Shown piece by piece: positions 1,318 to 15,284 of a stretch of 64,000 nucleotides of DNA. Under the pieces are notes generated by a model that saw nothing but the letters and a program-made list of their open reading frames with translations, ran no database searches and was not told the DNA's origin. Every line of letters begins with the position of its first letter. Position 1 is the first letter of the stretch. The stretch spans positions 10,349 through 74,348 of the forward strand of contig JBDTSL010000003.1 in NCBI GenBank assembly GCA_039931165.1, given 5' to 3'. Origin of the DNA: Candidatus Doudnabacteria bacterium. Its GTDB lineage: Bacteria > Patescibacteriota > Doudnabacteria > UBA920 > O2-02-FULL-48-8. A program made the position numbers and the translations under genes.

Positions 1318-2097
1318 TCACCTTTTGATTTTTTTATCTAACCTTTTAGCTTCTTCCCAGGCCAGGTCGAAGCTATTTTTAAGCATGTCCGCAATTTCTT
1401 GGCTTTCGATAATGATCCCAAAATTATCTTTTGGCGAAACTATAGCAATTTTATCTCCAAATATTCCCATATCGGAAGAAAAATTATATTTGTCTTTTGG
1501 GATCAACACTTGTTCATAAGGCTTATTTGGTTTAACATATTTAACTAGTTCTAGCATTTCTTTTGTTGCAGGACTTATTGCGAACATTTTTATTCCTTTT
1601 TTAGCTCTCTCACTATCTTGGGTCTGAAAATCAGGAACATGTTTGAAAATCTCAGCAGGATTTGCAAAAACTCTGAGTTCTTTCGTTTTTGTTTCCAAAA
1701 GACTCCAATATACTTCTCTGGCGCCATCCTTGCCTTCAAATATTTTTACAATCGGTCTTCGTTTTGTGGCCTTATGTAAAGCCTTGAGCTCAGGTAGGAT
1801 TGATTCTACCTTGGCTTTTATATCTTCCTGTTTTTTAGCGGCTGTTTTGACTGTTTGAAGTAAAATCTCCGGGGAAGCCGCCACGTATCGGCGGACATTT
1901 TTGTCGTCAGAAATTCCTGCTAAACCTTTCTTTTTCAGGGCTTCCAGGACCACATAAGCTGAGCTTCGGTTAATGCCGGAGTGTTCAGCGACCTCAAAAA
2001 CAGTAGCCAATTCAAGCTCCAGAAGGCTTAGATAGATCTTAGCCTCTTTATCCGATAGGCCGGAACCAATGAGTTGTTTAAGCAGGGGAGTGTTCAT
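1318..2097 (-). CDS. TrmB-family transcriptional regulator (N-terminal wHTH plus C-terminal effector domain)
   Basis: 'LSDKEAKIYLSLLELELATVFEVAEHSGINRSSAYVVLEALKKKGL' is a TrmB-type HTH. 259 aa. Confidence 0.75.
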   Translation of the reverse strand: MNTPLLKQLIGSGLSDKEAKIYLSLLELELATVFEVAEHSGINRSSAYVVLEALKKKGLAGISDDKNVRRYVAASPEILLQTVKTAAKKQEDIKAKVESILPELKALHKATKRRPIVKIFEGKDGAREVYWSLLETKTKELRVFANPAEIFKHVPDFQTQDSERAKKGIKMFAISPATKEMLELVKYVKPNKPYEQVLIPKDKYNFSSDMGIFGDKIAIVSPKDNFGIIIESQEIADMLKNSFDLAWEEAKRLDKKIKR

Positions 2098-2190
2098 ATT
2101 TACTGTTAGAGTATAACAACAAGTTGACTTAAACGCAAGCCAGGGCTCAATATTATGCTGTCAGGCATTGACAACAATCATATTCGGACT
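2098..2190. promoter_or_regulatory. Repeated promoter/operator module, copy R1, between divergent trmB-like gene and membrane-protein gene
   Basis: Contains the palindrome TACTGTTAGAGTA (2101-2113, TACT-N5-AGTA, the site type reported for archaeal TrmB). Also the conserved block AACGCAAGCCAGGGCTCAATAT and the palindrome TGTCAGGCATTGACA (2159-2173), which includes TTGACA. Near-identical copies lie at 2800-2898 and 12795-12886. Confidence 0.6.
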
Positions 2191-2293
2191 AATACTTAAA
2201 TGATGTTTGAGGCCCCTTACCCACCCAAAAAAGAAGATTTGCTAAAAACTTGTGTTTTCTGCTAGAGTTAAGTCATAATATAACTTATATTAA

Positions 2294-2695
2294 ATGAAAA
2301 AATCTAAATTGGGTTTTGCGTCAAAACTTATTTTAATTTTTATTGCCGAATTGCTCATCGCCGGGTTTGTGGTTACTCCTTTAACAAAGTTGTTGCTTCC
2401 TAATATTACCGTCGCAGTTAAATCCTGGGTAGCCATTCTGCAGTTGGCTGTGGCCTTGAGCTTAAGTTTAGGTTTGGTTAAATACTTTGTGGAATTCGAC
2501 CCAAAGGAAGGATACAAAATCGGCAAAGTTTTAGTGGTGCTTAATATAGCTCTCGTTTTGGCACAGTTTTTTATTTTAAATCCGCTACCATTAAGATTCA
2601 CTGCCGCTATTTTAATTTTTGATATTGTAAGGTTAATTCTTAGTAGTGCAATTACTTACTATGCTTGCGTGTTTATACTGTCAGAATCTCGTTAA
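2294..2695 (+). CDS. Hypothetical integral membrane protein (4 predicted TM segments)
   Basis: ORF of 133 aa, hydrophobic throughout. No recognisable motif. Confidence 0.45.
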   Translation: MKKSKLGFASKLILIFIAELLIAGFVVTPLTKLLLPNITVAVKSWVAILQLAVALSLSLGLVKYFVEFDPKEGYKIGKVLVVLNIALVLAQFFILNPLPLRFTAAILIFDIVRLILSSAITYYACVFILSESR

Positions 2696-2799
2696 TTTTC
2701 CAGATACCAAAAAAAAATTAAGATTAAAGCGGCATAAAAAAAATGATTGAAAAAATCGTAGTCAGTTATTTAGCATAAGATAGGTTTGATCAAAGGACC

Positions 2800-2898
2800 A
2801 TTCATATTTACTGTTAGAGTATACCAACAAATAGATCGAAACGCAAGCCAGGGCTCAATATTACGCCGTCAAGGATTGACAACAATCGACCTAATGAT
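2800..2898. promoter_or_regulatory. Repeated promoter/operator module, copy R2
   Basis: Carries TACTGTTAGAGTA (2809-2821), the conserved AACGCAAGCCAGGGCTCAATAT block and the palindrome CGTCAAGGATTGACA. It also copies the first ~7 codons of the trmB-like gene on the minus strand (MNGPLIK... then stop), so it arose by duplication of the trmB 5' region. Confidence 0.6.
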
Positions 2899-2903
2899 AA
2901 AAT
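2876..2903 (+). promoter_or_regulatory. Sigma70-like promoter inside R2 driving the GC-rich cassette
   Basis: TTGACA, then 16 nt, then TAAAAT. Confidence 0.5.
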
Positions 2904-3118
2904 CAATTGAAGATATAGTCTCATTCAGATGGCTATGTTTTGTTTATATTTTGTTGATCATCGCAGGAGGATCTTTGGAAGCAATGATGTGGGTGATCTG
3001 AGGCTGGGTTAGGTAAGGACATGGACCCAATCCTGGTCAACTCACGGTCGAACGCGGACACACGCGCTGGTCAATCAGTTGCGTCAGTTGCGCTCACGTC
3101 GGTGTCGAGAGGACAGCA

Positions 3119-3610
3119 ATGCTAAGTCTCAAAGAAACGCTGGGCTATACGAACGACCAAGTACTCAACAAGTTTCGTACGCTGTACGAATTCTCACGGC
3201 CAGACGCCGAAGAGATCGCTCGAGAGACAAACCGATGGCTTTGGCTGAACGCTCGCCTTAAGGCAGACAGAAAAGAAGGACGCCAGAATATCCCGCGCGT
3301 TCTTGTAGTGCATGAAGGGATGGTGGTGCTGGACGAATACTGGCACACTTTCATTCTTCACACGCGCGATTACAGAGAGTTCTGCGATAGCCATCTGGGG
3401 TTTTTCATCCACCACTCCCCATCCTTTCCAGGGTTTCAGCCACCTTCTCAAGAGGAGGCAGAGGAGCAGCTGAATTACATCTGCGACAGAGTCGGCGACG
3501 AAACACTCATCAAGTGGTACGAAGAGTACCCCGTCAGATACTCGGCTGATGTACTGACGAAACTTCAGAGGCCGAAACAGTTCGGCCGGCCCTGTGAGGC
3601 GATTACATGA
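3119..3610 (+). CDS. DUF1399 / glycine-rich-domain-protein (GRDP)-like protein, paralogue 1
   Basis: 'RWLWLNARL...VVLDEYWHTFILHTRDYREFCDSHLGFFIHH' aligns with the paralogue at 12962-13441 ('RFLLLNATHPHIVPTREIDQFWHMHILDTYKYTQDCEDLFGHYLHH'). The W-H-x-H ... Y..DC pattern matches my recollection of Pfam DUF1399. Confidence 0.55.
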   Translation: MLSLKETLGYTNDQVLNKFRTLYEFSRPDAEEIARETNRWLWLNARLKADRKEGRQNIPRVLVVHEGMVVLDEYWHTFILHTRDYREFCDSHLGFFIHHSPSFPGFQPPSQEEAEEQLNYICDRVGDETLIKWYEEYPVRYSADVLTKLQRPKQFGRPCEAIT

Positions 3611-4281
3611 TGAAACAACCCGCAGCGTCACCAGAGCTCTGCGCGTCGCAAGTTCGAGAGCAAATTGATTTGGTGGGGTTCTCGATTGCGGAAGTCGGCG
3701 ATAGGGAAAACTATCTGACAATTTGCGGCATGTTAGGCTGCATTACCGGGACAAGAGATCTCAGTATACAGCCTGACAAGGTCGAGCGGTTTACTGGGTA
3801 TTCGTACAAGCCTGACGAAGTGCCGTTCCACACAGATAACCCGCTTGTCAATATCGTTGGGCTGTTCTGTGTGACGCCTGACGCGATTGGGGGTGAAAAC
3901 CTCCTCATTGATTCTCGGGACATCCTGAAAGAACTGACGGAGCAGGAGCGTGAGTGCCTGAAGCAGGTGCGTGTGCCCCTGCCCAAGAAAGAAGAGTGTC
4001 TCCCAGTTCTAACCGAGATCGATGGTCGGCCTCCGCATGTTTATTGGCTACCGGCGTTCACGTTAGCGATGACGGCGAAACTCGAGAAGGAGTACTCAGA
4101 AGCTGTTAATCGCTTCGACGAAGTGCTTCAAAATCATCGTGCTGCCAAGAGATGTCGTTCGATTCGGCTGAACACTGGTGAGGCGCTTTGGTTTGACAAT
4201 TTCGTCATGTTGCACGGGCGAGACCGACTCGAGGCATCCAGCAAACGGGCCCAAGTGCGGGTTTTCATCAAGTACGTTTGA
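3607..4281 (+). CDS. Fe(II)/2-oxoglutarate-dependent dioxygenase, TauD/TfdA (clavaminate-synthase-like) family
   Basis: 'PFHTDNP' is the HxD iron-binding motif. The C-terminal 'WFDNFVMLHGRDR' is the distal His plus Arg, as in the WDNR...H family motif. ATGA overlap with the upstream gene. Confidence 0.65.
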   Translation: MMKQPAASPELCASQVREQIDLVGFSIAEVGDRENYLTICGMLGCITGTRDLSIQPDKVERFTGYSYKPDEVPFHTDNPLVNIVGLFCVTPDAIGGENLLIDSRDILKELTEQERECLKQVRVPLPKKEECLPVLTEIDGRPPHVYWLPAFTLAMTAKLEKEYSEAVNRFDEVLQNHRAAKRCRSIRLNTGEALWFDNFVMLHGRDRLEASSKRAQVRVFIKYV

Positions 4282-4313
4282 CTGGAAATTTAAAATGGGA
4301 GGAGGTGATTTGC

Positions 4314-4397
4314 GTGACCCGTAAGGAGCGAATCAAGCGCATCGTGAAGAAGCTCAGCGCTAGCGACTGCTCTGCCTGCCAAGGCTGCACTAGCTAG
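4314..4397 (+). CDS. Unlisted 27-aa Cys-rich peptide (VTRKERIKRIVKKLSASDCSACQGCTS), candidate modified-peptide precursor
   Basis: Strong Shine-Dalgarno GGGAGGAGGTGA (4297-4308) lies 8 nt before a GTG start. Basic N-terminal half and a C-terminal core with three Cys and several Ser/Thr. A strong terminator follows immediately. Confidence 0.4.
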   Translation: MTRKERIKRIVKKLSASDCSACQGCTS

Positions 4398-4412
4398 CAT
4401 CGGCGTCGACGG

Positions 4413-4455
4413 TGTATCATGTATGTGAGTATACATGATACACTGTCATTTTTTT
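4413..4455 (+). terminator. Rho-independent terminator ending the GC-rich cassette
   Basis: GTGTATCATGTAT-gtgagt-ATACATGATACAC: perfect 13-bp stem followed by TGTCATTTTTTT. Confidence 0.8.
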
Positions 4456-4475
4456 GCATATTATTTTTTTAATAT

Positions 4476-5063
4476 ATGATCAGTAAGCTAAAAAAAGATT
4501 GGACGGAATATTTTGAGAATACAAAAGAGTACCCACCCTCAAAACTTCTTATTGAGGCTCTTTGCTATGTAAACAATAAACACAAGGCTATAGATATCGG
4601 TGGCGGGGCTCTGAAAGATACCCGTTATTTACTGTCACAAGGTTTTGATACTACAGTAATTGACAAAGAGGATCAAATGGCTACTTTTGCTCGAAAGTTA
4701 AAATCTGATAGATTGCATTATTTTATAACCACTTTTGCCAACTTTGATTTTCCAGAAAATGAGTATGATATTGCCTCGGCTATATATTCATTACCATTTA
4801 ATCTACCTGAAGATTTTGATTATGTTTTAATGAAAGTAAAAAATTCTTTGGTTAAAGGTGGTATTTTTTGTGGGCAATTCTTCGGAGAGCGCGATGATTG
4901 GCATATTAATCCGACAATGACTTTCCACTCAGGGGAAAAAGTTAAGACTTTACTCGCTGATATGAATATTCTTTTATTTGAGGAAAAAGAGTTTAAAGGT
5001 AAAACTGCGAATAATTCTCCTAAATATTGGCATGTGTTTAATGTCATAGCTAGAAAAAAATAG
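4476..5063 (+). CDS. Class I SAM-dependent methyltransferase (TehB/TPMT-like small-molecule methyltransferase)
   Basis: Motif I 'AIDIGGGALKDTRYLLSQGF' and an acidic motif II 'VIDKED'. 195 aa, AT-rich coding. Confidence 0.65.
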   Translation: MISKLKKDWTEYFENTKEYPPSKLLIEALCYVNNKHKAIDIGGGALKDTRYLLSQGFDTTVIDKEDQMATFARKLKSDRLHYFITTFANFDFPENEYDIASAIYSLPFNLPEDFDYVLMKVKNSLVKGGIFCGQFFGERDDWHINPTMTFHSGEKVKTLLADMNILLFEEKEFKGKTANNSPKYWHVFNVIARKK

Positions 5064-5170: not shown

Positions 5171-6721
5171 ATGAAAACTATCAATATTGACGGAAAAAGT
5201 TTGGACCTGGATTCAATCCTGTCGGTTTTAAACGATCCCGGTACAAAAGTAAATATCAGCGCCTCGACTCTCAAAAAGATCCAAAAGTCTGCTGATTTTT
5301 TAGGTAAAGAGATAATCAACTCAAAAGTTATTTACGGCATCAATACGGGATTTGGCCCCATGGCCTCTCATCTGATGGCCAGAGATCAGATAGTACAACT
5401 ACAGGAGAACCTGATCAGAAGCCATGCGGTGGGGGTAGGAGACCCTATGCCGGAAAAATTTGTTTTAGCAGCGATGATAATCCGGCTCAACACTTTGGCA
5501 GAAGGATATTCCGGAGCCTCGCAGGAATTGATCCAACAGCTCAAAATTTTCATCAATAAAAGAATAATCCCTGTGATTTTAGAACATGGGGGAGTGGGTG
5601 CCAGCGGCGATTTGGTCCAGCTGGCCCATATTGCTTTGGCTCTGATCGGTGAAGGCAAGGTTAATTATCAGGGAAAGACCCGGCCGACGTCCGATGTTCT
5701 GAAACAGTTGAAGATCAAGCCTTATCAGCTGAGACCGAAGGAAGGACTATCTCTGATTAACGGAACGTCTTTTATGTCCGGTATCGGGTCAGTGATATGC
5801 CATGACAGCGACATGCTTTTGAACTTAGCTATTAAAACCGGCGCGTGGTCTCTGGAACTGGTGAATGGTTATACCGACGGCTTTTCGGAAAAACTACATT
5901 CGTTGCGCCCGCATAAAGGCCAGGTGGCTGTCGCCCGGAAATTGAGGGAACTTTTGGCTAGCTCAAAGTTGCTGAAATCCCGCGAGTTGATAAACAAGCA
6001 GGTTAATCTTGGTTCTGATGTGAAAGAGATCCCGGAGTTTGTCCAGGAAGTTTATTCCATCCGCTGTATCCCGCAAATTTTGGGCCCAATTTACGATACG
6101 CTCCAGAAAACCAAACAGGTCATCGAAACCGAGATTAATTCCGTCACGGACAACCCGATCGTCTATGTGGATAAAAAGACATTCCTGCATGGAGGCAATT
6201 TCCACGGTGATTATATTTCATCCTCATTGGATCAGCTGAAGATGACATTGGTCAGGTTGACCATGCTGTCGGAGAGACGAGTCAACTTTTTTTTAAATCA
6301 CAATGTTAATAGATTTTTGCCCCCATTTATCAATTTAAACAAAATTGGATTAAACTTGGGCTTGCAAGCTCTGCAGTTTCCTGCAACTTCGACTACCGCG
6401 AAAAGCCAAACATTAGCATACCCCCAATATGTCCACTCCATCCCCACGAACGCGGACAACCAGGACATTGTCAGCATGGGCACAGACTCCGCACTTATCA
6501 CTACCCAAGTGGTGGATAATGCTTTTGTGGTTTTGGCTATAGAGTTGGTAACCTTGGCCCAGGCAGTGGATTATCTCAAATATCAAAACAAACTTTCTAA
6601 ATCCTCAAATGAACTTTATAAAGCAGTACGCCGGATCTTGCCCAAGGTTGTGGAAGACCGGATGATCGGATATGACCTAACAATGCTGGTATCAGAAGTA
6701 AAGAAAGGCGTTATAAAATAA
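5171..6721 (+). CDS. MIO-dependent aromatic amino acid ammonia-lyase / aminomutase (HAL/PAL/TAL family)
   Basis: 'HGGVGASGDLVQLAHIALALIGEG' carries the Ala-Ser-Gly triad that forms the MIO cofactor. 'YGINTGFGPMASHL' is also present. 516 aa. Confidence 0.85.
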   Translation: MKTINIDGKSLDLDSILSVLNDPGTKVNISASTLKKIQKSADFLGKEIINSKVIYGINTGFGPMASHLMARDQIVQLQENLIRSHAVGVGDPMPEKFVLAAMIIRLNTLAEGYSGASQELIQQLKIFINKRIIPVILEHGGVGASGDLVQLAHIALALIGEGKVNYQGKTRPTSDVLKQLKIKPYQLRPKEGLSLINGTSFMSGIGSVICHDSDMLLNLAIKTGAWSLELVNGYTDGFSEKLHSLRPHKGQVAVARKLRELLASSKLLKSRELINKQVNLGSDVKEIPEFVQEVYSIRCIPQILGPIYDTLQKTKQVIETEINSVTDNPIVYVDKKTFLHGGNFHGDYISSSLDQLKMTLVRLTMLSERRVNFFLNHNVNRFLPPFINLNKIGLNLGLQALQFPATSTTAKSQTLAYPQYVHSIPTNADNQDIVSMGTDSALITTQVVDNAFVVLAIELVTLAQAVDYLKYQNKLSKSSNELYKAVRRILPKVVEDRMIGYDLTMLVSEVKKGVIK

Positions 6722-6722
6722 A

Positions 6723-7826
6723 ATGTTGGAGCCACCGAGAATATTTAAGGACAAAAAAGATGCTCCGGCGAATGCCAAGGTCATAGACGCATTTTCGTCT
6801 TCACTGACAGAGCTTTTTTTTATTGCTCATCCTCATTTGAAGAAAGGAATGCCGGAGGTGGATGCTGAACTGCAAAAATATCTGGAAGCAAATACGATCC
6901 CGGATATTTGGATTTATTACCCCGAAACAAATACCCTAGTGCGTACCTTGCCGGAAGAGGAATATTTCAGGCTTCGGACGGCAAGAAATAGAGATTTAAT
7001 TTCAGAGCAGGAACAAAACAATTTTCGCAGCATTACCGTGGGCATCGCCGGATTATCGGTTGGGTCGTCGGTGTTAAATATCCTTGTTCTGAGCGGGGGC
7101 CCGAAAGTTCTGAAGATAGCCGATTTTGATACTTTAGAAGTCTCCAATTTAAACCGCATCAGAGCGGGCCTGGCCGATGTTGGCACAAACAAAACCGAGA
7201 TAGCGGCGAGGGAAGTTTGGGAGCTGGACCCTTTTGCACAGCTTAAGCTGTACCACGACGGACTGAACAAGGAAAATATTGAGGAATTTATCTTGGGAGA
7301 ACCTCGACTCGGGGTCTTCGTAGATGCCATGGACAGCATTGATCTTAAAATTTTAGCCAGATTGATATGCAAAAAAAATAAAATTCCCGTGCTTTCTGCT
7401 ACGGATAACGGCGACAGCGTAATTCTGGACATAGAAAGATTTGATCTGGAGCCCGGCCGGGAGATTTTTCACGGGCTGGTTAAAGATATAGAACAATTAG
7501 ACCTGGACCATCTTGATTATAAGTCTTGGCTTAATTTGGCTGCCCAGATAGTTGGCCCGGAATATTTAACCGAGTCAATGCAGGATTCAGTTCTTAAAAT
7601 CGGCAAATCATTGGCCAGCGTCCCGCAGTTAGGCGCCTCTGCGGCAATCGGGGGATCTGCTTGCAGTTTTGCTATCAGAAGGATTGCTAACAAGCAAGCT
7701 CTAAATTCAGGCCGCTCTATCATCAGTCTGGAAGAAAAATTAATCCCAGGGTTCGGCGACCCGGAGAGTGTTTTGTCGAGAAGCACAAAAACAGAACAAT
7801 TTGTCCGATCTTTCGGGCAAAAATAA
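6723..7826 (+). CDS. E1-like / ThiF-MoeB family adenylyltransferase with ~75-aa N-terminal extension
   Basis: 'RTARNRDLI...ITVGIAGLSVGS' is the Rossmann motif. 'KIADFDTLEVSNLNRI' is the canonical DxDxVExSNLNRQ motif. Confidence 0.8.
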   Translation: MLEPPRIFKDKKDAPANAKVIDAFSSSLTELFFIAHPHLKKGMPEVDAELQKYLEANTIPDIWIYYPETNTLVRTLPEEEYFRLRTARNRDLISEQEQNNFRSITVGIAGLSVGSSVLNILVLSGGPKVLKIADFDTLEVSNLNRIRAGLADVGTNKTEIAAREVWELDPFAQLKLYHDGLNKENIEEFILGEPRLGVFVDAMDSIDLKILARLICKKNKIPVLSATDNGDSVILDIERFDLEPGREIFHGLVKDIEQLDLDHLDYKSWLNLAAQIVGPEYLTESMQDSVLKIGKSLASVPQLGASAAIGGSACSFAIRRIANKQALNSGRSIISLEEKLIPGFGDPESVLSRSTKTEQFVRSFGQK

Positions 7827-7827
7827 T

Positions 7828-9267
7828 ATGACGCAAGAAATAAAAAATATACTGAATATTTTTCACACTGCCGCCAGGGAAGTGCCTGCTTACAGAAGTT
7901 TTTTGAAGGCCAATAAGATAGATCCGAAAAAAATAAAAATGTTCGAGGATTTTGAACGCCTGCCGATAATGGATAAACATAATTTTATTCATAAATATCC
8001 GTTTGAGCAGTCGTTCAGCAGAAAAAAAATTCCCGCCATGATCTCCGCTTCATCGGGCTCATCCGGCAAGCCCACATTTTGGCCGCGGGATGATTTACAG
8101 GAGCAGCACGGAGGCGAGATCCACCTGCGGATCTTCAGGGATATTTTCGGCATCAAGCCAGACCAGCCGACCCTGGTAATTGACTGTTTTGCTACCGGCA
8201 TCTGGGTAGCGGGTAATTTTACCCTGTCATCCTGCCGTTACGTCTCGCGCCAGGGGTATAATTTGACCTCCGTAACGCCGGGCATTGAAATAGAGGATAT
8301 CCTCAGCTGTATTAAAATTTTAGGGCCCCATTTTAAAAACGTGATCATAGCCGGATATCCGCCGTTTATGATGGACGTCTTCGTGGAAGCGATCAAAAGG
8401 GGAATTAAAATTCCAAAAAATCTCAAGGTTATGACTTCCGGAGATAAGTTTTCCGAAGAATGGAGAGATGCCGTGTTAAAATTGCTTCATCTGGACGGCT
8501 TGAGTTCTGTCATAAGCGTCTACGGCTGCGCCGACGCGTCATTGCTGGGATTTGAAACTGCCGCGAGCATTTTTTTACGAAGAAAATCCCTTGAGGTTCC
8601 TCAACTTTACCATCGCCTATTCGGTTCCGAAAAATCACTGCCGACTATTTTGCAATACGATCCCAAATACGTATTTTTTGAAGAAAATGGCCAGGAATTG
8701 ATTTTTACCGCCAACACCAGCATCCCTTTGATCCGCTACAATATTCATGATGTGGGAAACGTACTTACTCATCAGGAAGCTGCTGCGATCTTATCCGAAT
8801 ATAAGCTTTTGGAAGAAGCAAATCGTCACGGATTTAAGGATTGGCAGCTGCCGTTTGTGGTAAAAAAGGGACGAACCGATGTCGCGGTAACTTTTTACGC
8901 ATTAAATATTTATCCCGAGGACATCCTAGCCGGAATTGAGGATCGCAGAGTAAAAAAGTTTTTAACTGGAGACTTTTTTTCATACAACCAAGATATCAAG
9001 AACCACAAACAGCAAAAATTGTTCATTAAGCTGCAGCTTTCGCCAAAGACAAAACTTTCCGCAAAAATAAAAGAACTGATAGGCAACAGCATTGTTGAGA
9101 ATTTGAAAAAGACCAGCACCGAGTACCGCAAATTATTTGCAGCTATCGGCAATAGAGCATTGCCAGAAATTTTATTTACCAAAAGCAAGGATTTTAAGAT
9201 CGATCATCACCGAGGCCTGATTGATATTCAAGGGAAAAAACCGAAAGTCACATTGGGGGAAAAATAA
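7828..9267 (+). CDS. PaaK-like adenylate-forming enzyme (phenylacetate-CoA ligase / coenzyme F390 synthetase family)
   Basis: 'ISASSGSSGKPTFWP' is the ANL P-loop, placed near residue 80 as in PaaK. The ORF-track start at 7768 overlaps the upstream gene. The internal ATG at 7828 ('MTQEIKN') abuts the upstream stop. Confidence 0.65.
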   Translation: MTQEIKNILNIFHTAAREVPAYRSFLKANKIDPKKIKMFEDFERLPIMDKHNFIHKYPFEQSFSRKKIPAMISASSGSSGKPTFWPRDDLQEQHGGEIHLRIFRDIFGIKPDQPTLVIDCFATGIWVAGNFTLSSCRYVSRQGYNLTSVTPGIEIEDILSCIKILGPHFKNVIIAGYPPFMMDVFVEAIKRGIKIPKNLKVMTSGDKFSEEWRDAVLKLLHLDGLSSVISVYGCADASLLGFETAASIFLRRKSLEVPQLYHRLFGSEKSLPTILQYDPKYVFFEENGQELIFTANTSIPLIRYNIHDVGNVLTHQEAAAILSEYKLLEEANRHGFKDWQLPFVVKKGRTDVAVTFYALNIYPEDILAGIEDRRVKKFLTGDFFSYNQDIKNHKQQKLFIKLQLSPKTKLSAKIKELIGNSIVENLKKTSTEYRKLFAAIGNRALPEILFTKSKDFKIDHHRGLIDIQGKKPKVTLGEK

Positions 9268-9277
9268 TTAGAACTTT

Positions 9278-10333
9278 ATGGAAACAAACATTAAAAAAAT
9301 TTTGGAAATAGCGGTTCTTGCTCCTTCTGGGGACAATTCCCAACCTTGGAAATTTTCTATCAAAGACGATACATTGTATGTGATTCTTGTTCGAAATGCT
9401 GATGATTCAGCTTATAATTTTATGGAGCGAGGATCTTTGATCGGCCATGGGGCAGTATTAGAAAATATTAATATTATTTCGCGGCATCTAGGCCTCAATG
9501 CCAATATACAACTTTTCCCGGAAGGCAAAAATTCAGACCTGGTTGCTAAAATTTCATTTCTGCCTACCGCAAACCAAGACACTGGTCTGTTTGAAGCTAT
9601 AGAAAAGCGTTGCACTAATAGGAAGCAGTATAAAGCACTGAATATTTCAGCAAATCATGAAAAGGAAATTCTTTCAATACCATTAGAAAAACCACTACTT
9701 AACTTTTCTTTATTGAAAGATAGGGCGAAAATTACAGATTTGGCCAACACCATAAATCTCAACGAAAGAATGTTTCTGGAAAATTATTATGTACATAAAG
9801 GATTATTTGGTTTTATCAGATGGACAAAGGAAGAGGAGCTGAAATATAAAACAGGTATGTATATAAAAACCTTGGAGCTCCAACCTCCTCAGGAATTTGC
9901 GATGAAGATATTTAGAAGGTGGCCGATAATTAATTTTTTTAACAAATTTAACATTGCGGCTATGGTAGCGAAAGACAGCGCTAAACTTTACACCACTTCG
10001 GCTGCGTTTGGTTTAATTACGGCTCCAGATTTATCCGAAGAAAGTTTAATCGCTACGGGCAGAATGATGCAGAGGATTTGGCTCACCGCTACAAAATTAG
10101 GTGTGAGTATGCAGCCTACTGCAGGCTTGCTTTATTTGGCTCAAAGAGTAAACGAGGAGGGAACCAAAATATTTTCGGCCAAACACGTTGAAATGCTAAA
10201 GACTGCAGAACAAAAAATAAAAGGAATATTTAAATTGTCAAACGAAGTTCCAACTTTGCTTTTTCGTTTGGGATATGCCGATCCTCCTTCCGCCACATCA
10301 ATAAAACATCCTTATTTATTAAAAAATATATGA
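9278..10333 (+). CDS. Nitroreductase-family flavoprotein, tandem-domain (~350 aa) type
   Basis: The N-terminal 'VLAPSGDNSQPWKF' matches the nitroreductase signature. The length is roughly twice a canonical NfsB fold. Confidence 0.7.
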   Translation: METNIKKILEIAVLAPSGDNSQPWKFSIKDDTLYVILVRNADDSAYNFMERGSLIGHGAVLENINIISRHLGLNANIQLFPEGKNSDLVAKISFLPTANQDTGLFEAIEKRCTNRKQYKALNISANHEKEILSIPLEKPLLNFSLLKDRAKITDLANTINLNERMFLENYYVHKGLFGFIRWTKEEELKYKTGMYIKTLELQPPQEFAMKIFRRWPIINFFNKFNIAAMVAKDSAKLYTTSAAFGLITAPDLSEESLIATGRMMQRIWLTATKLGVSMQPTAGLLYLAQRVNEEGTKIFSAKHVEMLKTAEQKIKGIFKLSNEVPTLLFRLGYADPPSATSIKHPYLLKNI

Positions 10334-11058
10334 AAAACAAATTGTTTTTTCCAAAAAGGATTCCCGAACCTACCGCTATGGGAAAAATTGAATCAGAGGT
10401 CTTCGAAAAAATGTCCAAAGAAAATTATCAAAGATGGATCCTGCCTCTTGTGGATGATCTGGAACGATTTATGGATAATAAAAACCGTACTATCCTTGAT
10501 ATTGGCTCAGGACCGGGGCTTTTGGTCAAAGAGATAGCAATACGCTTCAAGCAGTCGAAAGTAATTGGGCTGGATAATTCTGCAGTTGCAGTAAAATTAG
10601 CTAGAAAGAATTGCATAAAACAAAGAAATGTCAGCTTTGTTGTCGGGGACGCTACCAAATTACAATTCAAGAGCCAATCTTTCGATCTTGTCGTATGTAA
10701 AGATACCCTGCACCATTTTCCGAAAGTTAAGACTTGTATCAAAGAGATGCTTCGGGTCCTGAAAGATGGAGGAACTCTATATATCCAAGACTTAAGAAGA
10801 GATTTACCTCATTATTTGCTGAAGCAGGCGATGCCGCCGGACACGGTTATGAAAAAGCTCCAATATTATTCCGCACGCGCTGCTTATACTAAAGATGAGT
10901 TGAAAAAAATACTGAAGGAATTAGGTGTGCGCAAACTGAATATTCAAACAAAAAAAGTCACACCTCAAATGGCTAAAAAGTACAGGAAATTGAACGTGGA
11001 CCTGACCAGACTTAAGCAAAGTTTTATTACCCGGTACGTGGCAACAATAAAAAAATAG
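10330..11058 (+). CDS. Class I SAM-dependent methyltransferase
   Basis: Motif I 'ILDIGSGPGLL', motif II 'VIGLDNS' and 'LRVLKDGGTLYI' are present. ATGA overlap with the nitroreductase gene. Confidence 0.8.
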   Translation: MKNKLFFPKRIPEPTAMGKIESEVFEKMSKENYQRWILPLVDDLERFMDNKNRTILDIGSGPGLLVKEIAIRFKQSKVIGLDNSAVAVKLARKNCIKQRNVSFVVGDATKLQFKSQSFDLVVCKDTLHHFPKVKTCIKEMLRVLKDGGTLYIQDLRRDLPHYLLKQAMPPDTVMKKLQYYSARAAYTKDELKKILKELGVRKLNIQTKKVTPQMAKKYRKLNVDLTRLKQSFITRYVATIKK

Positions 11059-12738
11059 ATGAATCCAAGCATTTTTCAGAACATACGGAACATTGACCTC
11101 TTGTCGGTCGGAATTGCCACTGCTTCTATTGGGATAATGGGTTTTATCATTTATTTTAATGATAAAAAGAACAGCATCAATCAGACTTTTCTGGCCCTGT
11201 CCGTGATGGGCATTTTTTGGAGTGCTTTTAATTATTTAAGTTATCAATTTTACGACCCGGTTGTGGTAATTTGGCTGATCCGAATTGCCGTCTTTTTTGC
11301 AGTGTGGTTTTCTTTTTCTATTTTTAGGTTATTTTATATTTTTCCAAATAAAAGCCCAGAATTTGTAAAGGCATATTATTACTTATTTATTCCGATAACA
11401 GTTGTTTCGTCACTGCTAAACTTAACCCCATTGGTGTTTACCCGAGTGACTGCATTTACTGAGGGGCGGGTGTCGGAAGTGGCCAACGGACCTGCTATTG
11501 CTTTGTTTGGAATCGTTGTATTCGGGTTGGTCGGATGTGGCATATATTTGTTAGTTAAAAAAATCAGGCGGACTAAAGGAGTTGAAAGAAAGCAACTCGA
11601 CTTAATATTTTTCGGAATAACCATTACTTGTTTATTGCTGATAATTTTCAATTTTATTTTACCGGCCTTTTTAAACAATGCCGCTTATATTTCTTTTGGC
11701 GCGGTATTTTTGTTTCCTTTCATAGCTCTTACCGCTTACTCTATAATTAAACTGCATTTGTTTGATGTAAAAGTGTTTGCGACCGAAGTATTAACTTTTG
11801 TGCTCTCAATAGTTAATTTAATTGAGATTGTGACCGCAAAAGATACCCTGACGTTTGTTTTTCGTCTATCTATGTTCGCATTAGTATTAGGTTTTGGAAT
11901 TTTGCTGATAAGGAGCGTGCAAAAGGAAGTAGAGCTTAGGCGTCAACTGCAAATCTTAGACAAAGAACTTGAGGCCGCGAATGCGCAGCTGAAGATTTTG
12001 GACCAGGCCAGGGCCGAGTTTATCACTATCGCGTCCCATCAGCTTCGCACGCCGCCGGCCACTATCAAGTGGTATTTGGCCTCCATTCTGGACGGGGATT
12101 ATGGCAAGATGGACGCGGCAGTGCATGAACAGCTTCGTAAAACCGCTTCAACCAATGGTTCAATGATCTCGCTGATCGACGATCTGCTGAATGTTTCTAG
12201 GATTGAGCGGGGCAAGATGGAATTTATTTTCCAGCCCACGGATATGGCGGAGATCACCCAGATCACGGTTGACCAGCTCCTGCCGCAGGCGGAAATGAGA
12301 AAACTGCAGTTGATCTACGAAAAGCCGAAAGTACCCCTGCCGATAATCAACGCCGATAAAGAAAAACTGCGCCAGGTTATCAATAATTTGATTGATAATG
12401 CTATTAAATATACCCCGAAAGGTTCGATCACGGTCCAGCTCAGCCAGACCAAGGATGACATCATGGTGAAAGTCACCGATACGGGCAAAGGAGTAGATAA
12501 GGAACATCTCAAAAACGTATTTATAAAATTCGAACGCGGTAAAATTCCCGCTAAAAACTCCACCGGTCTGGGACTGGGGCTGTATGTGGCCAAAGTCATA
12601 GTCGAACAGCATAAAGGCAAGATCTGGGTCGAGTCGCCGGGCGTGGGTAAAGGCTCGAGCTTTATTTTCACCGTGCCGATCAAAGGCGAGGTCAACACCA
12701 CGGAATTCGACCTGACCAAGACCCAAACACCGGCTTGA
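11059..12738 (+). CDS. Sensor histidine kinase with polytopic (~7 TM) N-terminal sensor domain
   Basis: H-box 'ITIASHQLRTPPATIKWY', N-box 'NNLIDNAIKYT' and G-boxes 'DTGKGV' and 'GLGLYVAKVIVEQHKG'. Starts 1 nt after the methyltransferase stop. Confidence 0.85.
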   Translation: MNPSIFQNIRNIDLLSVGIATASIGIMGFIIYFNDKKNSINQTFLALSVMGIFWSAFNYLSYQFYDPVVVIWLIRIAVFFAVWFSFSIFRLFYIFPNKSPEFVKAYYYLFIPITVVSSLLNLTPLVFTRVTAFTEGRVSEVANGPAIALFGIVVFGLVGCGIYLLVKKIRRTKGVERKQLDLIFFGITITCLLLIIFNFILPAFLNNAAYISFGAVFLFPFIALTAYSIIKLHLFDVKVFATEVLTFVLSIVNLIEIVTAKDTLTFVFRLSMFALVLGFGILLIRSVQKEVELRRQLQILDKELEAANAQLKILDQARAEFITIASHQLRTPPATIKWYLASILDGDYGKMDAAVHEQLRKTASTNGSMISLIDDLLNVSRIERGKMEFIFQPTDMAEITQITVDQLLPQAEMRKLQLIYEKPKVPLPIINADKEKLRQVINNLIDNAIKYTPKGSITVQLSQTKDDIMVKVTDTGKGVDKEHLKNVFIKFERGKIPAKNSTGLGLGLYVAKVIVEQHKGKIWVESPGVGKGSSFIFTVPIKGEVNTTEFDLTKTQTPA

Positions 12739-12794
12739 AACGTATCTAGAGATAACAAAAAAACCTCGACATTAGTCGGGATTTTTTTAAATAT

Positions 12795-12886
12795 CCATAC
12801 TGTCAGTATATTCCAACTACTTGCATAAAACGCAAGCCAGGGCTCAATATAACGCTGTCAAGTATTGACAACAATCGACCCAATGC
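12795..12886. promoter_or_regulatory. Repeated promoter/operator module, copy R3
   Basis: TACTGTCAGTA (12798-12808, TACT-N3-AGTA), the conserved AACGCAAGCCAGGGCTCAATAT block and the palindrome TGTCAAGTATTGACA (12856-12870). Confidence 0.6.
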
Positions 12887-12961
12887 TTACACTTCATAAT
12901 GATTTGGTCGGCAATTCCGCAGGCCGCAATCACTCGTAAGCAACAATCGAAAAGAGGAATC

Positions 12962-13441
12962 ATGGAAATTCCGTCGACATTGGAAAACAAGTTGGCGAAT
13001 CTCGATCTCGAGCCGATCAAGGTCAAGCTCATGGATGCCGAAGAAGGGCCGGGTTGGTCGCTCAAGATGTGCGACTCGGTGGAGGTGCTTTACAAGCGCT
13101 TCCTGCTGCTCAACGCAACACATCCGCACATCGTTCCGACGCGAGAGATTGACCAGTTCTGGCACATGCACATTCTCGACACTTACAAGTACACCCAGGA
13201 CTGCGAAGACCTGTTCGGCCACTACTTACATCACTTCCCGTACTTTGGTATGCGGGGTGCCAGTGATGCCAGCGATTTGAAGCTGGCATTTGCCAATACG
13301 CTGGCTCTGTACGCTGCCAAGTACGGCGAACCGCTTGAAACGGCAGCGGCGATGTGCAACTGCTGTGACGATGGCGGCGGAGTGACACAGGGTGATCTCA
13401 AGGCCATTCGACCGACAATCGACCGATCACTCGCGATGTGA
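12962..13441 (+). CDS. DUF1399 / GRDP-like protein, paralogue 2 (GC-rich)
   Basis: 'YKRFLLLNATHPHIVPTREIDQFWHMHILDTYKYTQDC'. The RBS AAGAGGA precedes the ATG at 12962, so the longer 12899 start is unlikely. Confidence 0.55.
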   Translation: MEIPSTLENKLANLDLEPIKVKLMDAEEGPGWSLKMCDSVEVLYKRFLLLNATHPHIVPTREIDQFWHMHILDTYKYTQDCEDLFGHYLHHFPYFGMRGASDASDLKLAFANTLALYAAKYGEPLETAAAMCNCCDDGGGVTQGDLKAIRPTIDRSLAM

Positions 13442-13452
13442 AGGCTCATACA

Positions 13453-13487
13453 GGGGGATAAGTTGCTTTCCCCCTCTTTTTTTAAAT
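13453..13487 (+). terminator. Rho-independent terminator
   Basis: GGGGGA-taagttgctt-TCCCCC followed by TCTTTTTTTT. Confidence 0.6.
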
Positions 13488-13496
13488 CTATTAGAT

Positions 13497-14168
13497 ATGA
13501 TCACATTCTATACTAAATTAGCGAATTTATATGATAAAACCTATCTGAAAAAAGATTATCAGAAAGAAGTTTTATATTTGAAAAAATTTATTAAAGGTTC
13601 AGTTTTGGATGTTGGTTGTGGAACAGGTCGACATTTACAATATTTGAAAGATCACATACGAATTGGATTAGATAAAAGTTTGCAATTAATTAAACTTGCG
13701 AAACAAAATAATCCAGGGATTAAGTTTTTGCAAGGGGACATTGTTAATTTTAAAATTAATCAGAAATTTGATACGATTATCAGTTTGTTTACAGTGATTG
13801 CTTACCTAAATTCTAAGCAACTTGAGGAAGCTATTAATAATTTAGTCAGTCATTTGAACTCTAAAGGAATTTTAATTTTAGAACCTTTCGCTGAACCAAA
13901 AACCTTGTCATTGAAACCTTGGTTTAATTCCTATAATTCACCAACTTTAAAATTTACTCGATATGTGACTCTCAAAAAAATTAGAAATATAGCTAAACTA
14001 AATATTCAATGGTGGGTTAATGGAAATACTATTAAAGAAGTTCAACATTTATCATTATTTAAGCATAAACATATCATCAAATTATTAAATAAATATTGTG
14101 TTAAAGTCGAGTATTTGCCACCAACGCATTTATTTAGATACGGACTATTTGTGGCTAGAATTTCTTGA
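13497..14168 (+). CDS. Class I SAM-dependent methyltransferase (AT-rich)
   Basis: Motif I 'VLDVGCGTGRH' and motif II 'RIGLDKS'. The internal start 'MITFYTKL' was chosen because the longer ORF overlaps the upstream gene in a different frame. Confidence 0.7.
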   Translation: MITFYTKLANLYDKTYLKKDYQKEVLYLKKFIKGSVLDVGCGTGRHLQYLKDHIRIGLDKSLQLIKLAKQNNPGIKFLQGDIVNFKINQKFDTIISLFTVIAYLNSKQLEEAINNLVSHLNSKGILILEPFAEPKTLSLKPWFNSYNSPTLKFTRYVTLKKIRNIAKLNIQWWVNGNTIKEVQHLSLFKHKHIIKLLNKYCVKVEYLPPTHLFRYGLFVARIS

Positions 14169-14239
14169 ATATAAAAATAGTTAAGGGAACTATATACCTA
14201 AATCGGCTGGATCGCTTCACAAAAATATCTTTTCTTGAA

Positions 14240-14345
14240 TCGAACAGCGTAAAGGCAAGATCTGGGTCGAGTCGAAAGGGGAGGTAAAGGCGAGGTCAAC
14301 ACCACGGAATTCGACCTGACCAAGACCCAAACACCGGCTTGAAAT
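14240..14345 (+). pseudogene. Truncated duplicate of the 3' end of the histidine-kinase gene (direct repeat of 12602-12740 with a 35-bp internal deletion)
   Basis: 'CGAACAGCGTAAAGGCAAGATCTGGGTCGAGTCG' and 'AAAGGCGAGGTCAACACCACGGAATTCGACCTGACCAAGACCCAAACACCGGCTTGAAA' recur at 12602-12740. Confidence 0.8.
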
Positions 14346-14411
14346 ATATCGCCCGATTTGTTAGAATTGGTTAGCGTTCGGGCGTAGCTCAGCGGTAGAG
14401 CAGCTGACTGT

Positions 14412-14981
14412 GAACAAGTTCTTAAAGGCGGCATAAAGGTCTTATTTTATGCCAAAAGAGAAGAGAACATATTCCGACCGTTCTCAATACATTATCCAGG
14501 CGGTTACCAAGAGACGTAAAAAGCTCAGGGAAATGGCTAGGGTGTATAAAGGCGGTAAATGTATGATCTGTGGTTACGATCGCTGTCTAGGAGCGCTTGA
14601 TTTTCACCACATTGATCCTTCCAAGAAAAAGTTTGGAATATCCATGAACGGATTAACCAAATCTTGGGATAAGATCAAAGGCGAACTGGATAAGTGCATC
14701 TTAATTTGCGCGAATTGCCACAGAGAAATCCATGCAGGAATTACGCAGCTTCCTGGGGAAACCCAGGTTGAAAAACGAGGTGAACTCGGGGAAGCCCTGC
14801 ACCAGTAATCGGTACAGGGTAATCCCGAGCCAAGCTCCGACTTTTCAGTCGGAGAAGGTGTAGAGACTATCCCGCAAGGGAGTACTCCCAGCCCTTTCTT
14901 CGAAAGTGCTGGGCGGAAGCGCCTCGGACCCCTAATAGGGTTATGATATAGTCCATACTAAAGGCGACTTTAGATTAAATG
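14412..14981 (+). ncRNA. Group I self-splicing intron (570 nt) carrying an HNH endonuclease ORF
   Basis: Conserved core elements: R-like 'GAGACTA' (14863-14869) and S-like 'GATATAGTCC' (14944-14953), which form P7 (GACTA/TAGTC). Terminal G (omegaG) at 14981. Confidence 0.65.
14449..14808 (+). CDS. HNH homing endonuclease encoded within the group I intron
   Basis: 'CMICGYDRCLGALDFHHIDP...CILICANCHREIH' gives CxxC ... HH ... CxxCH, the HNH zinc-finger and catalytic motif. Confidence 0.8.
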   Translation: MPKEKRTYSDRSQYIIQAVTKRRKKLREMARVYKGGKCMICGYDRCLGALDFHHIDPSKKKFGISMNGLTKSWDKIKGELDKCILICANCHREIHAGITQLPGETQVEKRGELGEALHQ

Positions 14982-15025
14982 TAATCAGCGGGTCGCTGGT
15001 TCGAATCCAGCCGCCCGAGCCAAAT

Positions 15026-15056
15026 AAAAAAACCTGACTTCTGTCGGGTTTTTTTA
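15026..15056. terminator. Bidirectional terminator after the tRNA
   Basis: AAAAAAACCTGAC-ttct-GTCGGGTTTTTTT (one G-U pair in the stem). Confidence 0.7.
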
Positions 15057-15182
15057 TTTGTTTGACAGGCTGGATTCGAAGGGCAGAAGTGAGGCAAGAC
15101 CCCAGTCGCAGCCGAACGTCGACGGAAGCGAGGGCTCGCAGCTTCCGTCGCTGCCCCGGACATGAGCGCATCAGCGCGAATC

Positions 15183-15240: not shown

Positions 15241-15284
15241 CGATTCCCGGCGGCGGATTCGAAGGGTTGAAGTCATACAATTAA

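What the first reader, a model, noticed from the sequence alone, without database searches (positions are those of the whole stretch)
2098..2190. Three copies of a TrmB-linked operator/promoter module define a small regulon (trmB itself plus two DUF1399-gene cassettes)
A ~95-bp module occurs at 2098-2190, 2800-2898 and 12795-12886. It contains the conserved block AACGCAAGCCAGGGCTCAATAT and a palindrome TGTCA-N5-TGACA that embeds a TTGACA -35 box.

It also contains TACTGTTAGAGTA (TACT-N5-AGTA) in R1 and R2, and TACTGTCAGTA (TACT-N3-AGTA) in R3. TACTN3AGTA is the recognition motif reported for archaeal TrmB.

R1 is the 5' UTR of the TrmB-family regulator gene, with the operator overlapping its start. 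R2 even copies the first seven trmB codons. R2 and R3 sit immediately upstream of the two paralogous DUF1399/GRDP-like genes.

This predicts autoregulation of trmB and co-regulation of both DUF1399 loci by the same sugar-responsive regulator.
Basis: partly seen in the sequence, partly recalled or inferred. Interest (0 to 1): 0.7.

Follow-up and report, generated by a model that had tools for sequence, protein, structure and literature searches.

The report
Copied TrmB-gene promoter/operator control module
Three copies of the two-way promoter region of a TrmB-type regulator gene sit in this candidate-phylum (Doudnabacteria) genome, each with two conserved 20-bp repressor-type binding sites.

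Summary
The three ~100-nt copies are real: R1 2076-2196, R2 2784-2903, R3 12773-12893. The exact 22-mer occurs three times where none is expected.

Comparing 14 or more Patescibacteria genomes shows the module is the conserved control region of the trmB-like gene. It holds two 20-bp dyads, YTGTTG-N8-YRACAG, about 55 bp apart. O1 encloses the -10 box (TATACT) of the trmB promoter. O2 encloses the -35 box (TTGACA) of a divergent promoter.

A matrix built only from other genomes' sites picks exactly the six sites of R1-R3 as the top hits in the 64 kb window. Other genomes also carry second module copies. One secreted-protein family sits behind the module in four genomes.

The regulon idea is therefore supported, with three corrections:
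- TACT-N3/5-AGTA is a by-product of the -10 box plus a half-site. It is absent from every O2 and from O1 sites that lack the -10 box.
- The 22-mer is specific to this genome.
- The regulator is TrmBL2-like with no detectable sugar-binding subdomain, so "sugar-responsive" is unsupported.

R3 and its cassette are bracketed by a duplicated histidine-kinase 3' end. R2 keeps a relic trmB start. Both point to insertion by recombination. Binding itself is untested.

The parts
1318..2097 (-). trmB-like regulator gene (259 aa): wHTH, long helix and a C-terminal alpha/beta domain, TrmBL2-like architecture
   Evidence: Pfam PF01978, E 9.7e-16. AF2 pLDDT 90. Foldseek best full-length hit is TrmBL2 5bpd, E 4e-13. 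More than 200 orthologues in Patescibacteria.
2076..2196 (.). Module R1: the native bidirectional control region between trmB (leftward) and gene 2294-2695 (rightward)
2103..2122 (-). R1 operator O1: TTGTTG-TTATACTC-TAACAG on the minus strand. It encloses the -10 box TATACT (2115-2110) of the trmB promoter and ends 7 nt before the trmB ATG.
   Evidence: Matrix score 20.7 of a 20.7 maximum. Conserved in 13 genomes.
2132..2153 (.). Invariant 22-mer AACGCAAGCCAGGGCTCAATAT. It contains the -35-like TTGCGT (2138-2133, minus strand; 17-nt spacer to TATACT). Specific to this genome; further function unknown.
   Evidence: promoter reading taken from the sequence
2158..2177 (-). R1 operator O2: TTGTTG-TCAATGCC-TGACAG on the minus strand. 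It encloses the -35 box TTGACA (2168-2173, plus strand) of the rightward promoter.
   Evidence: Matrix score 18.5. ATTGTTGTCAAT is invariant in 11 genomes. Promoter TTGACA-17-AATACT scores 10/12.
2294..2695 (+). 133-aa predicted membrane protein, read from the R1 rightward promoter
   Evidence: hydrophobic sequence, no Pfam hit
2770..2805 (-). Relic of the trmB 5' end (ATG plus 11 codons and a stop), copied together with R2
2784..2903 (.). Module R2: O1 at 2811-2830 (score 20.7), 22-mer at 2840-2861, O2 at 2866-2885 (score 13.7, right half TGACGG), rightward promoter TTGACA (2876-2881)-N16-TAAAAT (2898-2903)
   Evidence: (11/12, with TG extension)
3119..5063 (+). Cassette behind R2: PF27765 protein (3119-3610), TauD-family dioxygenase (3607-4281) and methyltransferase (4476-5063). 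The first two genes are 52-53% GC against 39% for trmB.
   Evidence: The same trio occurs without the module in other Patescibacteria.
12773..12893 (.). Module R3: O1 at 12800-12819 (degenerate, score 13.7), 22-mer at 12829-12850, O2 at 12855-12874 (score 18.5), rightward promoter TTGACA (12865-12870)-N17-TACACT (12888-12893)
   Evidence: 10/12
12962..14168 (+). Cassette behind R3: PF27765 protein (12962-13441, 55% GC) and methyltransferase (13392-14168, 30% GC)
12602..12746 (+). 3' end of the histidine-kinase gene: left copy of the direct repeat that brackets the R3 cassette
14240..14350 (+). Right copy (97% identical, about 45 nt missing internally) of the histidine-kinase 3' end; marks the end of the inserted R3 block

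Best explanation
Each module is a copy of the bidirectional control region of the trmB-like gene. It contains two 20-bp dyad operators, YTGTTG-N8-YRACAG (ideal form TTGTTG-N8-CAACAA), 55 bp apart.

O1 wraps the -10 box (TATACT) of the leftward trmB promoter. O2 wraps the -35 box (TTGACA) of a rightward sigma-70-type promoter.

Inferred mechanism: dimers of the TrmBL2-like regulator bind O1 and O2, probably cooperatively. They occlude both promoters, so the regulator represses itself and whatever lies on the O2 side. An unknown signal, not demonstrably a sugar, relieves the repression.

In this genome the region was copied twice by recombination. The rightward promoter now also drives two horizontally acquired cassettes that begin with a PF27765 gene. 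R2 drives PF27765-TauD-methyltransferase and R3 drives PF27765-methyltransferase.

Shown: the repeats, the conserved dyads and their overlap with promoter hexamers, the linkage to trmB across genomes, recurrent module duplication, and the insertion scars. Inferred: which protein binds, the sign of regulation, cooperativity and the effector.
For: (1) Footprinting across genomes. Upstream of trmB orthologues (47-76% identical proteins) in Doudnabacteria, Kaiserbacteria and Azambacteria, only the two dyads are conserved. TGTTG and ACA are invariant in 13 O1 sites. ATTGTTGTCAAT and ACA are invariant in 11 O2 sites. Flanks carry about 0.2-1 bit.

(2) A matrix built from 13 orthologue sites, using half-sites only and no window sites, ranks the six R1-R3 sites as the top six of 64 kb. 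Only 3 other hits reach 12 bits or more, against 3.1 expected. Ten unrelated loci (about 80 kb) give one weak hit.

(3) O1 in L018 and L033 is a perfect 8-2-8 or 9-2-9 palindrome centred on the same axis.

(4) Second copies occur in other genomes: L021, L028 and L031. In L028c2 and L031c2 the O1 spacer lost TATACT (now AGGGGGT or AGGGGAC) while both half-sites stayed intact. This shows selection on the half-sites rather than on the promoter.

(5) One secreted-protein family (LPPDPGEAGKATLAGIDSD...) lies on the O2 side in four genomes. It sits beside trmB in L022 and L041, and behind a second copy in L021 and L031.

(6) All 12 modules examined have a divergent gene on the O2 side.

(7) Rightward promoters score 10-11 of 12 in all three window copies.

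(8) O2-to-O1 spacings are 54-56 (eleven cases), 66, 95, 106 and 111 bp.

(9) The predicted recognition helix (residues 43-52, N-R-S-S-A-Y-V-V-L-E) is invariant or nearly so in 29 orthologues, matching the invariant half-site.
Against: There is no binding or expression data. The assignment of the binder rests only on conserved linkage to trmB.

The closest solved structure, TrmBL2, is described as a chromatin protein that binds coding and intergenic regions rather than as a site-specific repressor.

O2 of R2 and O1 of R3 are weakened, scoring 13.7.

The perfectly conserved 22-mer between the operators is not explained by this model beyond its -35-like hexamer.

Only 64 kb of this genome could be scanned, so the size of the regulon is unknown.

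The conserved GTAA after O1, and TACT-N5-AGTA at 10 of 13 trmB-proximal O1 sites, could mark an additional or alternative contact.
Confidence: 0.7

Rival explanations
1. The operators are archaeal-type TrmB sites (TACT-N3/5-AGTA plus TGTCA-N5-TGACA), bound by a sugar-sensing TrmB.
For: TACT-N5-AGTA is present in O1 of R1 and R2 and at 10 of 13 trmB-proximal O1 sites in other genomes. Archaeal TrmB binds TACTN3AGTA (PMC4158304). TGTCA-N5-TGACA is exact in R1 and R3.
Against: TACT..AGTA is absent from every O2, from O1 in L018, L021 and L033, and from second-copy O1s that lost the -10 box. It equals the -10 box TATACT plus the tail of a half-site. Spacing differs between R1/R2 and R3 only because of substitutions. 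No sugar-binding domain is detected.
Confidence: 0.1
2. The dyads are bound by a different, unidentified regulator. trmB would then be merely one of its targets.
For: The identity of the binder is inferred only from linkage. A receiver-only response regulator and a histidine kinase are conserved neighbours.
Against: The dyads accompany trmB in every genome examined, whatever the neighbouring genes are. The neighbouring response regulator has no DNA-binding domain. The invariant recognition helix parallels the invariant half-site.
Confidence: 0.1
3. Promoter-only duplication. What is conserved is just two core promoters, and no repressor is involved.
For: O1 and O2 overlap the -10 and -35 hexamers, and consensus-like promoters are present in all copies.
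Against: Half-sites lie outside the hexamers and are kept where the -10 box was lost, in L028c2 and L031c2. Perfect 20-bp palindromes occur in L018 and L033.
Confidence: 0.06
4. The modules are recombination or attachment sites of a cassette-capturing or mobile element rather than regulatory DNA.
For: Every extra copy lies at an insertion boundary. The R3 block is bracketed by 97% identical repeats of the histidine-kinase 3' end. R2 carries a trmB 5' relic and is chimeric: its O1 side is R1-like and its O2-distal side is R3-like. Cassette genes are GC-rich relative to the genome.
Against: No recombinase is found among the annotated ORFs in 1-16 kb. The module is found upstream of trmB without any cassettes in many genomes. 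The same cassette occurs elsewhere without the module. The scars fit ordinary homologous (Campbell-type) recombination.
Confidence: 0.04

Closest known systems
Archaeal TrmB / TrmBL1 (Tgr) regulators with palindromic operators at promoters (Pyrococcus, Thermococcus, Halobacterium)
   Same: Both have a PF01978 winged-helix DNA-binding domain followed by a long dimerisation helix. Both use palindromic sites placed over core promoter elements, and autoregulation is reported for some members (PMC4158304).
   Different: This one is bacterial (Patescibacteria) with sigma-70-type promoters. Its dyad is TTGTTG-N8-CAACAA rather than TACT-N3-AGTA, TATCAC-N5-GTGATA or TACT-N7-8-GAGTA. No PF11495 sugar-binding domain is detected.
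TrmBL2 (Thermococcales; PDB 5bpd, 5box, 5bqt)
   Same: It is the best full-length structural match (E 4e-13) with the same length, about 260 aa. It likewise lacks the roughly 70-aa sugar-binding part.
   Different: TrmBL2 is described as an abundant chromatin protein that binds coding and intergenic DNA. Here, conserved site-specific dyads upstream of its own gene point to a classical local repressor. Sequence identity is only 18-20%.
Classical bacterial divergons with two operators, where an autoregulated repressor gene is read divergently from its target (for example TetR/tetA-type arrangements; from general knowledge)
   Same: It has back-to-back promoters, operators overlapping the -10 and -35 boxes, and predicted simultaneous control of the regulator and the divergent gene.
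   Different: The regulator family is different. The whole control region, sometimes with the first regulator codons, has been copied to new loci in several genomes. This expands the regulon by duplicating a module rather than by evolving new sites.

Membership tests
TrmB family of transcription regulators (protein 1318-2097) | N-terminal TrmB-type winged HTH (Pfam PF01978) | tested here: met
   E 9.7e-16, 57.8 bits against a cut-off of 25.6. The fold matches TrmBL2 and TrmB.
TrmB family of transcription regulators (protein 1318-2097) | C-terminal sugar-binding effector domain (PF11495) as in TrmB/TrmBL1 | tested here: not met
   No Pfam hit at E <= 0.01 beyond the HTH. The protein is 259 aa against 338 for TrmB. 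The best structural match is TrmBL2, which lacks that part. Only the first EBD subdomain is matched (2f5t, E 7.8e-4).
TrmB family of transcription regulators (protein 1318-2097) | Effector (sugar) responsiveness | not testable with these tools
   Needs ligand-binding or EMSA experiments.
Archaeal TrmB operator (TACT-N3-AGTA type) | The motif is the shared element of all sites bound by the regulator | tested here: not met
   It is present only in O1 sites that contain TATACT and absent from all 13 O2 sites and 5 O1 sites.
Autoregulatory operator of a transcription factor | A conserved dyad upstream of the factor's own gene in orthologous loci, overlapping core promoter elements | tested here: met
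   promoter overlap
Autoregulatory operator of a transcription factor | Physical binding of the factor and an effect on transcription | not testable with these tools
   Needs EMSA, footprinting or a reporter assay.
Generic dispersed repeat (REP/MITE-like) | Many copies at unrelated positions, terminal inverted repeats, target-site duplication | tested here: not met
   Only 3 copies in 64 kb, all at promoters. The 18-mer core has only chance hits in 185,579 species genomes. The rest of this genome could not be scanned.
Known structured RNA (Rfam) | Match to an Rfam covariance model in or next to the module | tested here: not met
   No hit in the modules at E <= 1. The R2 leader folds no better than shuffles, z -0.26.
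DUF1399 / GRDP-like (PF07173) for genes 3119-3610 and 12962-13441 | Pfam PF07173 above the gathering score | tested here: not met
   No hit for the first gene and E 0.08 (14.1 bits against 22.7) for the second. Both are PF27765 UCP032817-like by precomputed Pfam, and some homologues also hit PF07173. They are a related family, not DUF1399 proper.

The most novel reading that the evidence does not exclude
Patescibacteria share a widely conserved TrmBL2-like regulator whose compact two-operator, two-promoter control region behaves as a portable plug-in module. It is repeatedly copied by recombination, sometimes with the first trmB codons. The copies land in front of newly acquired or relocated genes, which wires foreign cassettes straight into an existing regulon in these minimal genomes with few regulators.
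Probability: 0.3. Interest if true: 0.6.

Novelty: new member of a known kind. Interest (0 to 1): 0.45.

Why it matters
Almost nothing is known about transcription control in Patescibacteria (CPR). They are uncultivated, have small genomes and carry few regulators. No paper in the searched library links TrmB to Patescibacteria or CPR.

This work gives a concrete, testable operator (TTGTTG-N8-CAACAA, in pairs about 55 bp apart) for a regulator conserved across several CPR classes. It also gives a first set of candidate targets.

It further shows how a whole promoter/operator unit can be duplicated to bring horizontally acquired genes under existing control. That said, the underlying logic is textbook: an autoregulated repressor with operators over promoter elements.

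Tried and rejected
- Rfam scan of 1-16 kb at E <= 1 found nothing in the modules.
- Folding the 218-nt leader between R2 and gene 3119 gave z -0.26, so there is no sign of a structured leader or riboswitch.
- Searching the 18-mer core of the 22-mer in 185,579 species genomes gave only 10 hits in unrelated phyla. None had TTGAC downstream, and the count is of the order I estimated for chance (about 17, from collection size and word length). The block is therefore not a widespread element. This used the single genome-contig scan.
- I tested whether the module travels with the PF27765-TauD-methyltransferase cassette. It does not: L003 and L006 have the cassette with their own TTGACA promoters and no module.
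- Pfam gave no DUF1399 hit above threshold.
- A PDB sequence search gave only a marginal TrmB hit (E 0.008), so a fold search was needed.
- The metagenome pattern scan returned 5 of 12 loci that were chance or unrelated (L035, L036, L038, L039, L040).
- Helical phasing of O1 and O2 (spacings of 55, 66, 95, 106 and 111 bp) is suggestive only and is not claimed.
- A homologue of the recurrent secreted target family was sought in the window and not found (tblastn E 0.71).

Full report
**Observation**

The window comes from a Candidatus Doudnabacteria (Patescibacteria) MAG contig of 102,960 bp, according to the names attached to P0001 and P0035. Three direct copies of a module of about 100 nt are present. 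They lie at 2076-2179, 2784-2887 and 12773-12876, at 84% and 68% identity to the first copy (alignment).

The 22-mer AACGCAAGCCAGGGCTCAATAT occurs exactly three times. No further match appears even at three mismatches, and none is expected by chance. An independent Logan assembly reproduces the R1-R2 pair 708 bp apart.

R1 abuts the start codon (2097) of a minus-strand gene. Its product has a TrmB-type winged HTH (PF01978, E 9.7e-16). R2 carries a diverged 11-codon relic of the trmB start.

**What is conserved elsewhere**

The TrmB-like protein has more than 200 relatives in Patescibacteria, and the Doudnabacteria orthologues are 60-76% identical. I fetched orthologous loci and aligned their upstream regions with the reverse complements of R1-R3.

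Only two elements are conserved. Both are 20-bp dyads of the form YTGTTG-N8-YRACAG.
- O1 lies just before the trmB ATG. Its spacer contains TATACT.
- O2 lies 54-56 bp upstream in most genomes, and 66, 95, 106 or 111 bp upstream in others. It reads ATTGTTGTCAAT-N3-YRACAG.

Across one site per genome, TGTTG and ACA are invariant in 13 O1 sites. ATTGTTGTCAAT and ACA are invariant in 11 O2 sites. Flanking columns carry about 0.2-1 bit.

In the more distant L018 and L033, O1 is a perfect palindrome on the same axis: TGTTGGAG-GT-CTCCAACA and CTGTTGGTA-TC-TACCAACAG. The architecture also holds in an Azambacteria locus, where the protein is 47% identical, O1 abuts the ATG and the spacing is 54 bp. It holds in a Kaiserbacteria locus too.

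The 22-mer is not conserved in any of these genomes. Only a -35-like TTGnnT at the right distance from TATACT recurs. Its 18-mer core has only chance-level hits in 185,579 species genomes.

**Specificity in the window**

I built a half-site matrix from 13 orthologue sites, using no window sites and ignoring the spacer. It ranks the six sites of R1-R3 as the six best hits in 64 kb:

| Module | O1 score | O2 score |
|---|---|---|
| R1 | 20.7 | 18.5 |
| R2 | 20.7 | 13.7 |
| R3 | 13.7 | 18.5 |

Only three other hits reach 12 bits (13.0-13.3), against 3.1 expected from shuffles. About 80 kb of unrelated loci gave one weak hit.

**Relation to promoters**

On the minus strand of R1, TTGCGT-N17-TATACT precedes the trmB ATG by 12 nt (read). 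TATACT sits in the O1 spacer.

On the plus strand, TTGACA sits inside O2 and is followed by a -10 box in all three copies:
- R1: TTGACA-17-AATACT, 10/12
- R2: TTGACA-16-TAAAAT, 11/12, with a TG extension
- R3: TTGACA-17-TACACT, 10/12

The invariance of TCAAT in the O2 spacer across genomes is explained by this -35 hexamer. All 12 modules examined in other genomes have a divergently oriented gene on the O2 side.

The module is thus a back-to-back promoter pair, with one operator over the -10 box of one promoter and one over the -35 box of the other.

**Evidence that the dyads are more than promoters, and that the module defines a regulon**

Other genomes also carry second copies of the module away from trmB.
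- L021: 1165/1271 is a copy of 3820/3926. It includes about 8 trmB codons followed by a terminator.
- L028: 116/171 is a copy of 2176/2231.
- L031: two copies.

In L028c2 and L031c2 the O1 spacer has changed from TATACTA to AGGGGGT or AGGGGAC, which destroys the -10 box. Both half-sites are intact. This shows selection on the half-sites themselves.

A secreted or anchored protein family with the motif LPPDPGEAGKATLAGIDSDxDGVRDD lies on the O2 side in four genomes. It sits next to trmB in L022 and L041, and behind a second module copy in L021 and L031. The same target wired in two different ways is what a regulon predicts.

**The regulator**

The alignment of 29 orthologues shows N43-R44-S45-S46-A-Y48-V49 invariant or nearly so. 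In the AlphaFold model (pLDDT 90) this stretch falls at the start of helix 44-56, the position of the wHTH recognition helix. That parallels the invariant half-site.

Foldseek against the PDB gives TrmBL2 (about 260 aa) as the best full-length match (E 4e-13). TrmB 3qph follows at E 5e-9. No PF11495 effector domain is detected. According to the TrmB review, TrmBL2 lacks the roughly 70 residues that contain the sugar-binding domain (PMC4158304). The claim that the regulator is sugar-responsive therefore has no support.

TACT-N3..5-AGTA is found only in O1 sites whose spacer holds TATACT: 12 sites, including R1-R3. It is absent from all 13 O2 sites examined (11 trmB-proximal plus O2 of R2 and R3). 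It is also absent from O1 of L018, L021 and L033 and from the second-copy O1s. It equals the -10 box plus the tail of the right half-site.

R1 and R3 align without gaps through this stretch, so the N5-to-N3 difference is substitution and not a spacing variant.

TGTCA-N5-TGACA is part of O2: the -35 box plus the right half-site. The archaeal motifs are TACTN3AGTA, TATCAC-N5-GTGATA and TACT-N7-8-GAGTA. They differ from the dyad found here.

**How the copies arose (inference)**

The block made of R3, the PF27765 gene and the methyltransferase (about 12751-14239) is bracketed by 97% identical direct repeats of the histidine-kinase 3' end. These are 12602-12746 and 14240-14350, the latter with an internal deletion.

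R1 and R2 are direct repeats that include the trmB start. They bracket the 133-aa membrane-protein gene. R2 is chimeric: its O1 side resembles R1 (0.95), while the six bases beyond O2 are identical to R3 and differ from R1.

The PF27765 and TauD genes are 52-55% GC against 39% for trmB. The PF27765-TauD-methyltransferase trio occurs in other Patescibacteria in unrelated contexts with its own promoter and no module.

These scars fit single-crossover (Campbell-type) homologous insertions. They placed foreign cassettes behind copies of the resident control region. No recombinase was seen among the ORFs annotated in 1-16 kb.

**Unexplained**

The 22/23-nt block between O1 and O2 is perfectly conserved among the three copies, while O1 of R3 and the surrounding bases have drifted. 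It contains the -35-like hexamer of the trmB promoter. It lies about 15-36 nt upstream of the rightward -35 box, where an UP element or activator site would sit. It is not conserved in other genomes, so its role is open: gene conversion, or a genome-specific site.

**Verdict**

The repeat is real and is a regulatory module linked to the TrmB-family gene. The predicted regulon is trmB, 2294-2695, the cassette starting at 3119 and the cassette starting at 12962, and comparative evidence supports it well.

It is a new, uncharacterised member of a familiar kind of system, with a neat module-duplication twist in a poorly understood lineage. Binding and the sign of regulation remain to be shown.

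Noticed in passing
window 14378-15022 (+): The tRNA-His(GTG) gene is split in the anticodon loop by a 570-nt group I intron (Rfam RF00028, 57.6 bits, E 8e-14, at 14706-14974). The intron carries an HNH-endonuclease ORF (14449-14808). ARAGORN misses the gene in the window but calls tRNA-His on the spliced sequence.
   Followed up: yes
window 12602-12746 and 14240-14350: The last ~145 nt of the histidine-kinase gene, including its stop codon, are duplicated at 97% identity about 1.6 kb downstream. The two copies bracket the block made of R3, the PF27765 gene and the methyltransferase. This looks like an insertion scar from a single-crossover integration.
   Followed up: partly
window 15000-15280: The tRNA 3' end plus terminator (CGAATCCAGCCGCCCGAGCCA...) is repeated at 15183-15240. 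Inverted fragments (GGCTGGATTCGAA) follow at 15068-15080 and 15252-15264. These may be remnants of integration at the tRNA.
   Followed up: no
window 3119-5063; L003 6001-7947; L006 6001-7974: A three-gene cassette (PF27765 UCP032817-like, TauD-family dioxygenase, SAM methyltransferase) is conserved across Patescibacteria in unrelated neighbourhoods. In L003 it lies next to tRNA-Tyr and tRNA fragments. Here the first two genes are GC-rich (52-53%) and the methyltransferase is AT-rich (33%). Its function is unknown.
   Followed up: partly
window 5171-12738; L022, L024, L028 downstream of trmB: A cluster of a nitroreductase-like gene, ThiF, a ~497-aa protein with no Pfam hit, a dehydrogenase or aromatic-amino-acid lyase, and a 7TM histidine kinase lies directly downstream of trmB in other Doudnabacteria. 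In this genome it sits on the opposite side of trmB, behind R2 and its cassette, which implies a rearrangement.
   Followed up: no
L022 2933-3763, L041 424-1383, L021 434-1018, L031 (rc) 2739-3635: A family of signal-anchored proteins with the conserved motif LPPDPGEAGKATLAGIDSDxDGVRDDxQREI and no Pfam hit is the most recurrent gene on the O2 side of the module. No homologue is present in the window.
   Followed up: partly
L026 3194-3997 and 4001-4783: Two tandem trmB-like paralogues occur in one genome. Only the first has the O2/O1 pair upstream.
   Followed up: no
L028 1-190; L029 start: Contigs of this population begin or end close to a module copy. The repeated module may therefore break short-read assemblies.
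   Followed up: no
window 2784-2830 (-) toward 2695: R2 keeps an apparently intact copy of the leftward trmB promoter (TTGCGT-N17-TATACT) and O1. If active, it would read through the 11-codon relic and run antisense into the 133-aa membrane-protein gene.
   Followed up: no
window 42549-42932 (-): A tmRNA gene with tag peptide ANSLVKTVKNAFAFSPAMAVA.
   Followed up: no
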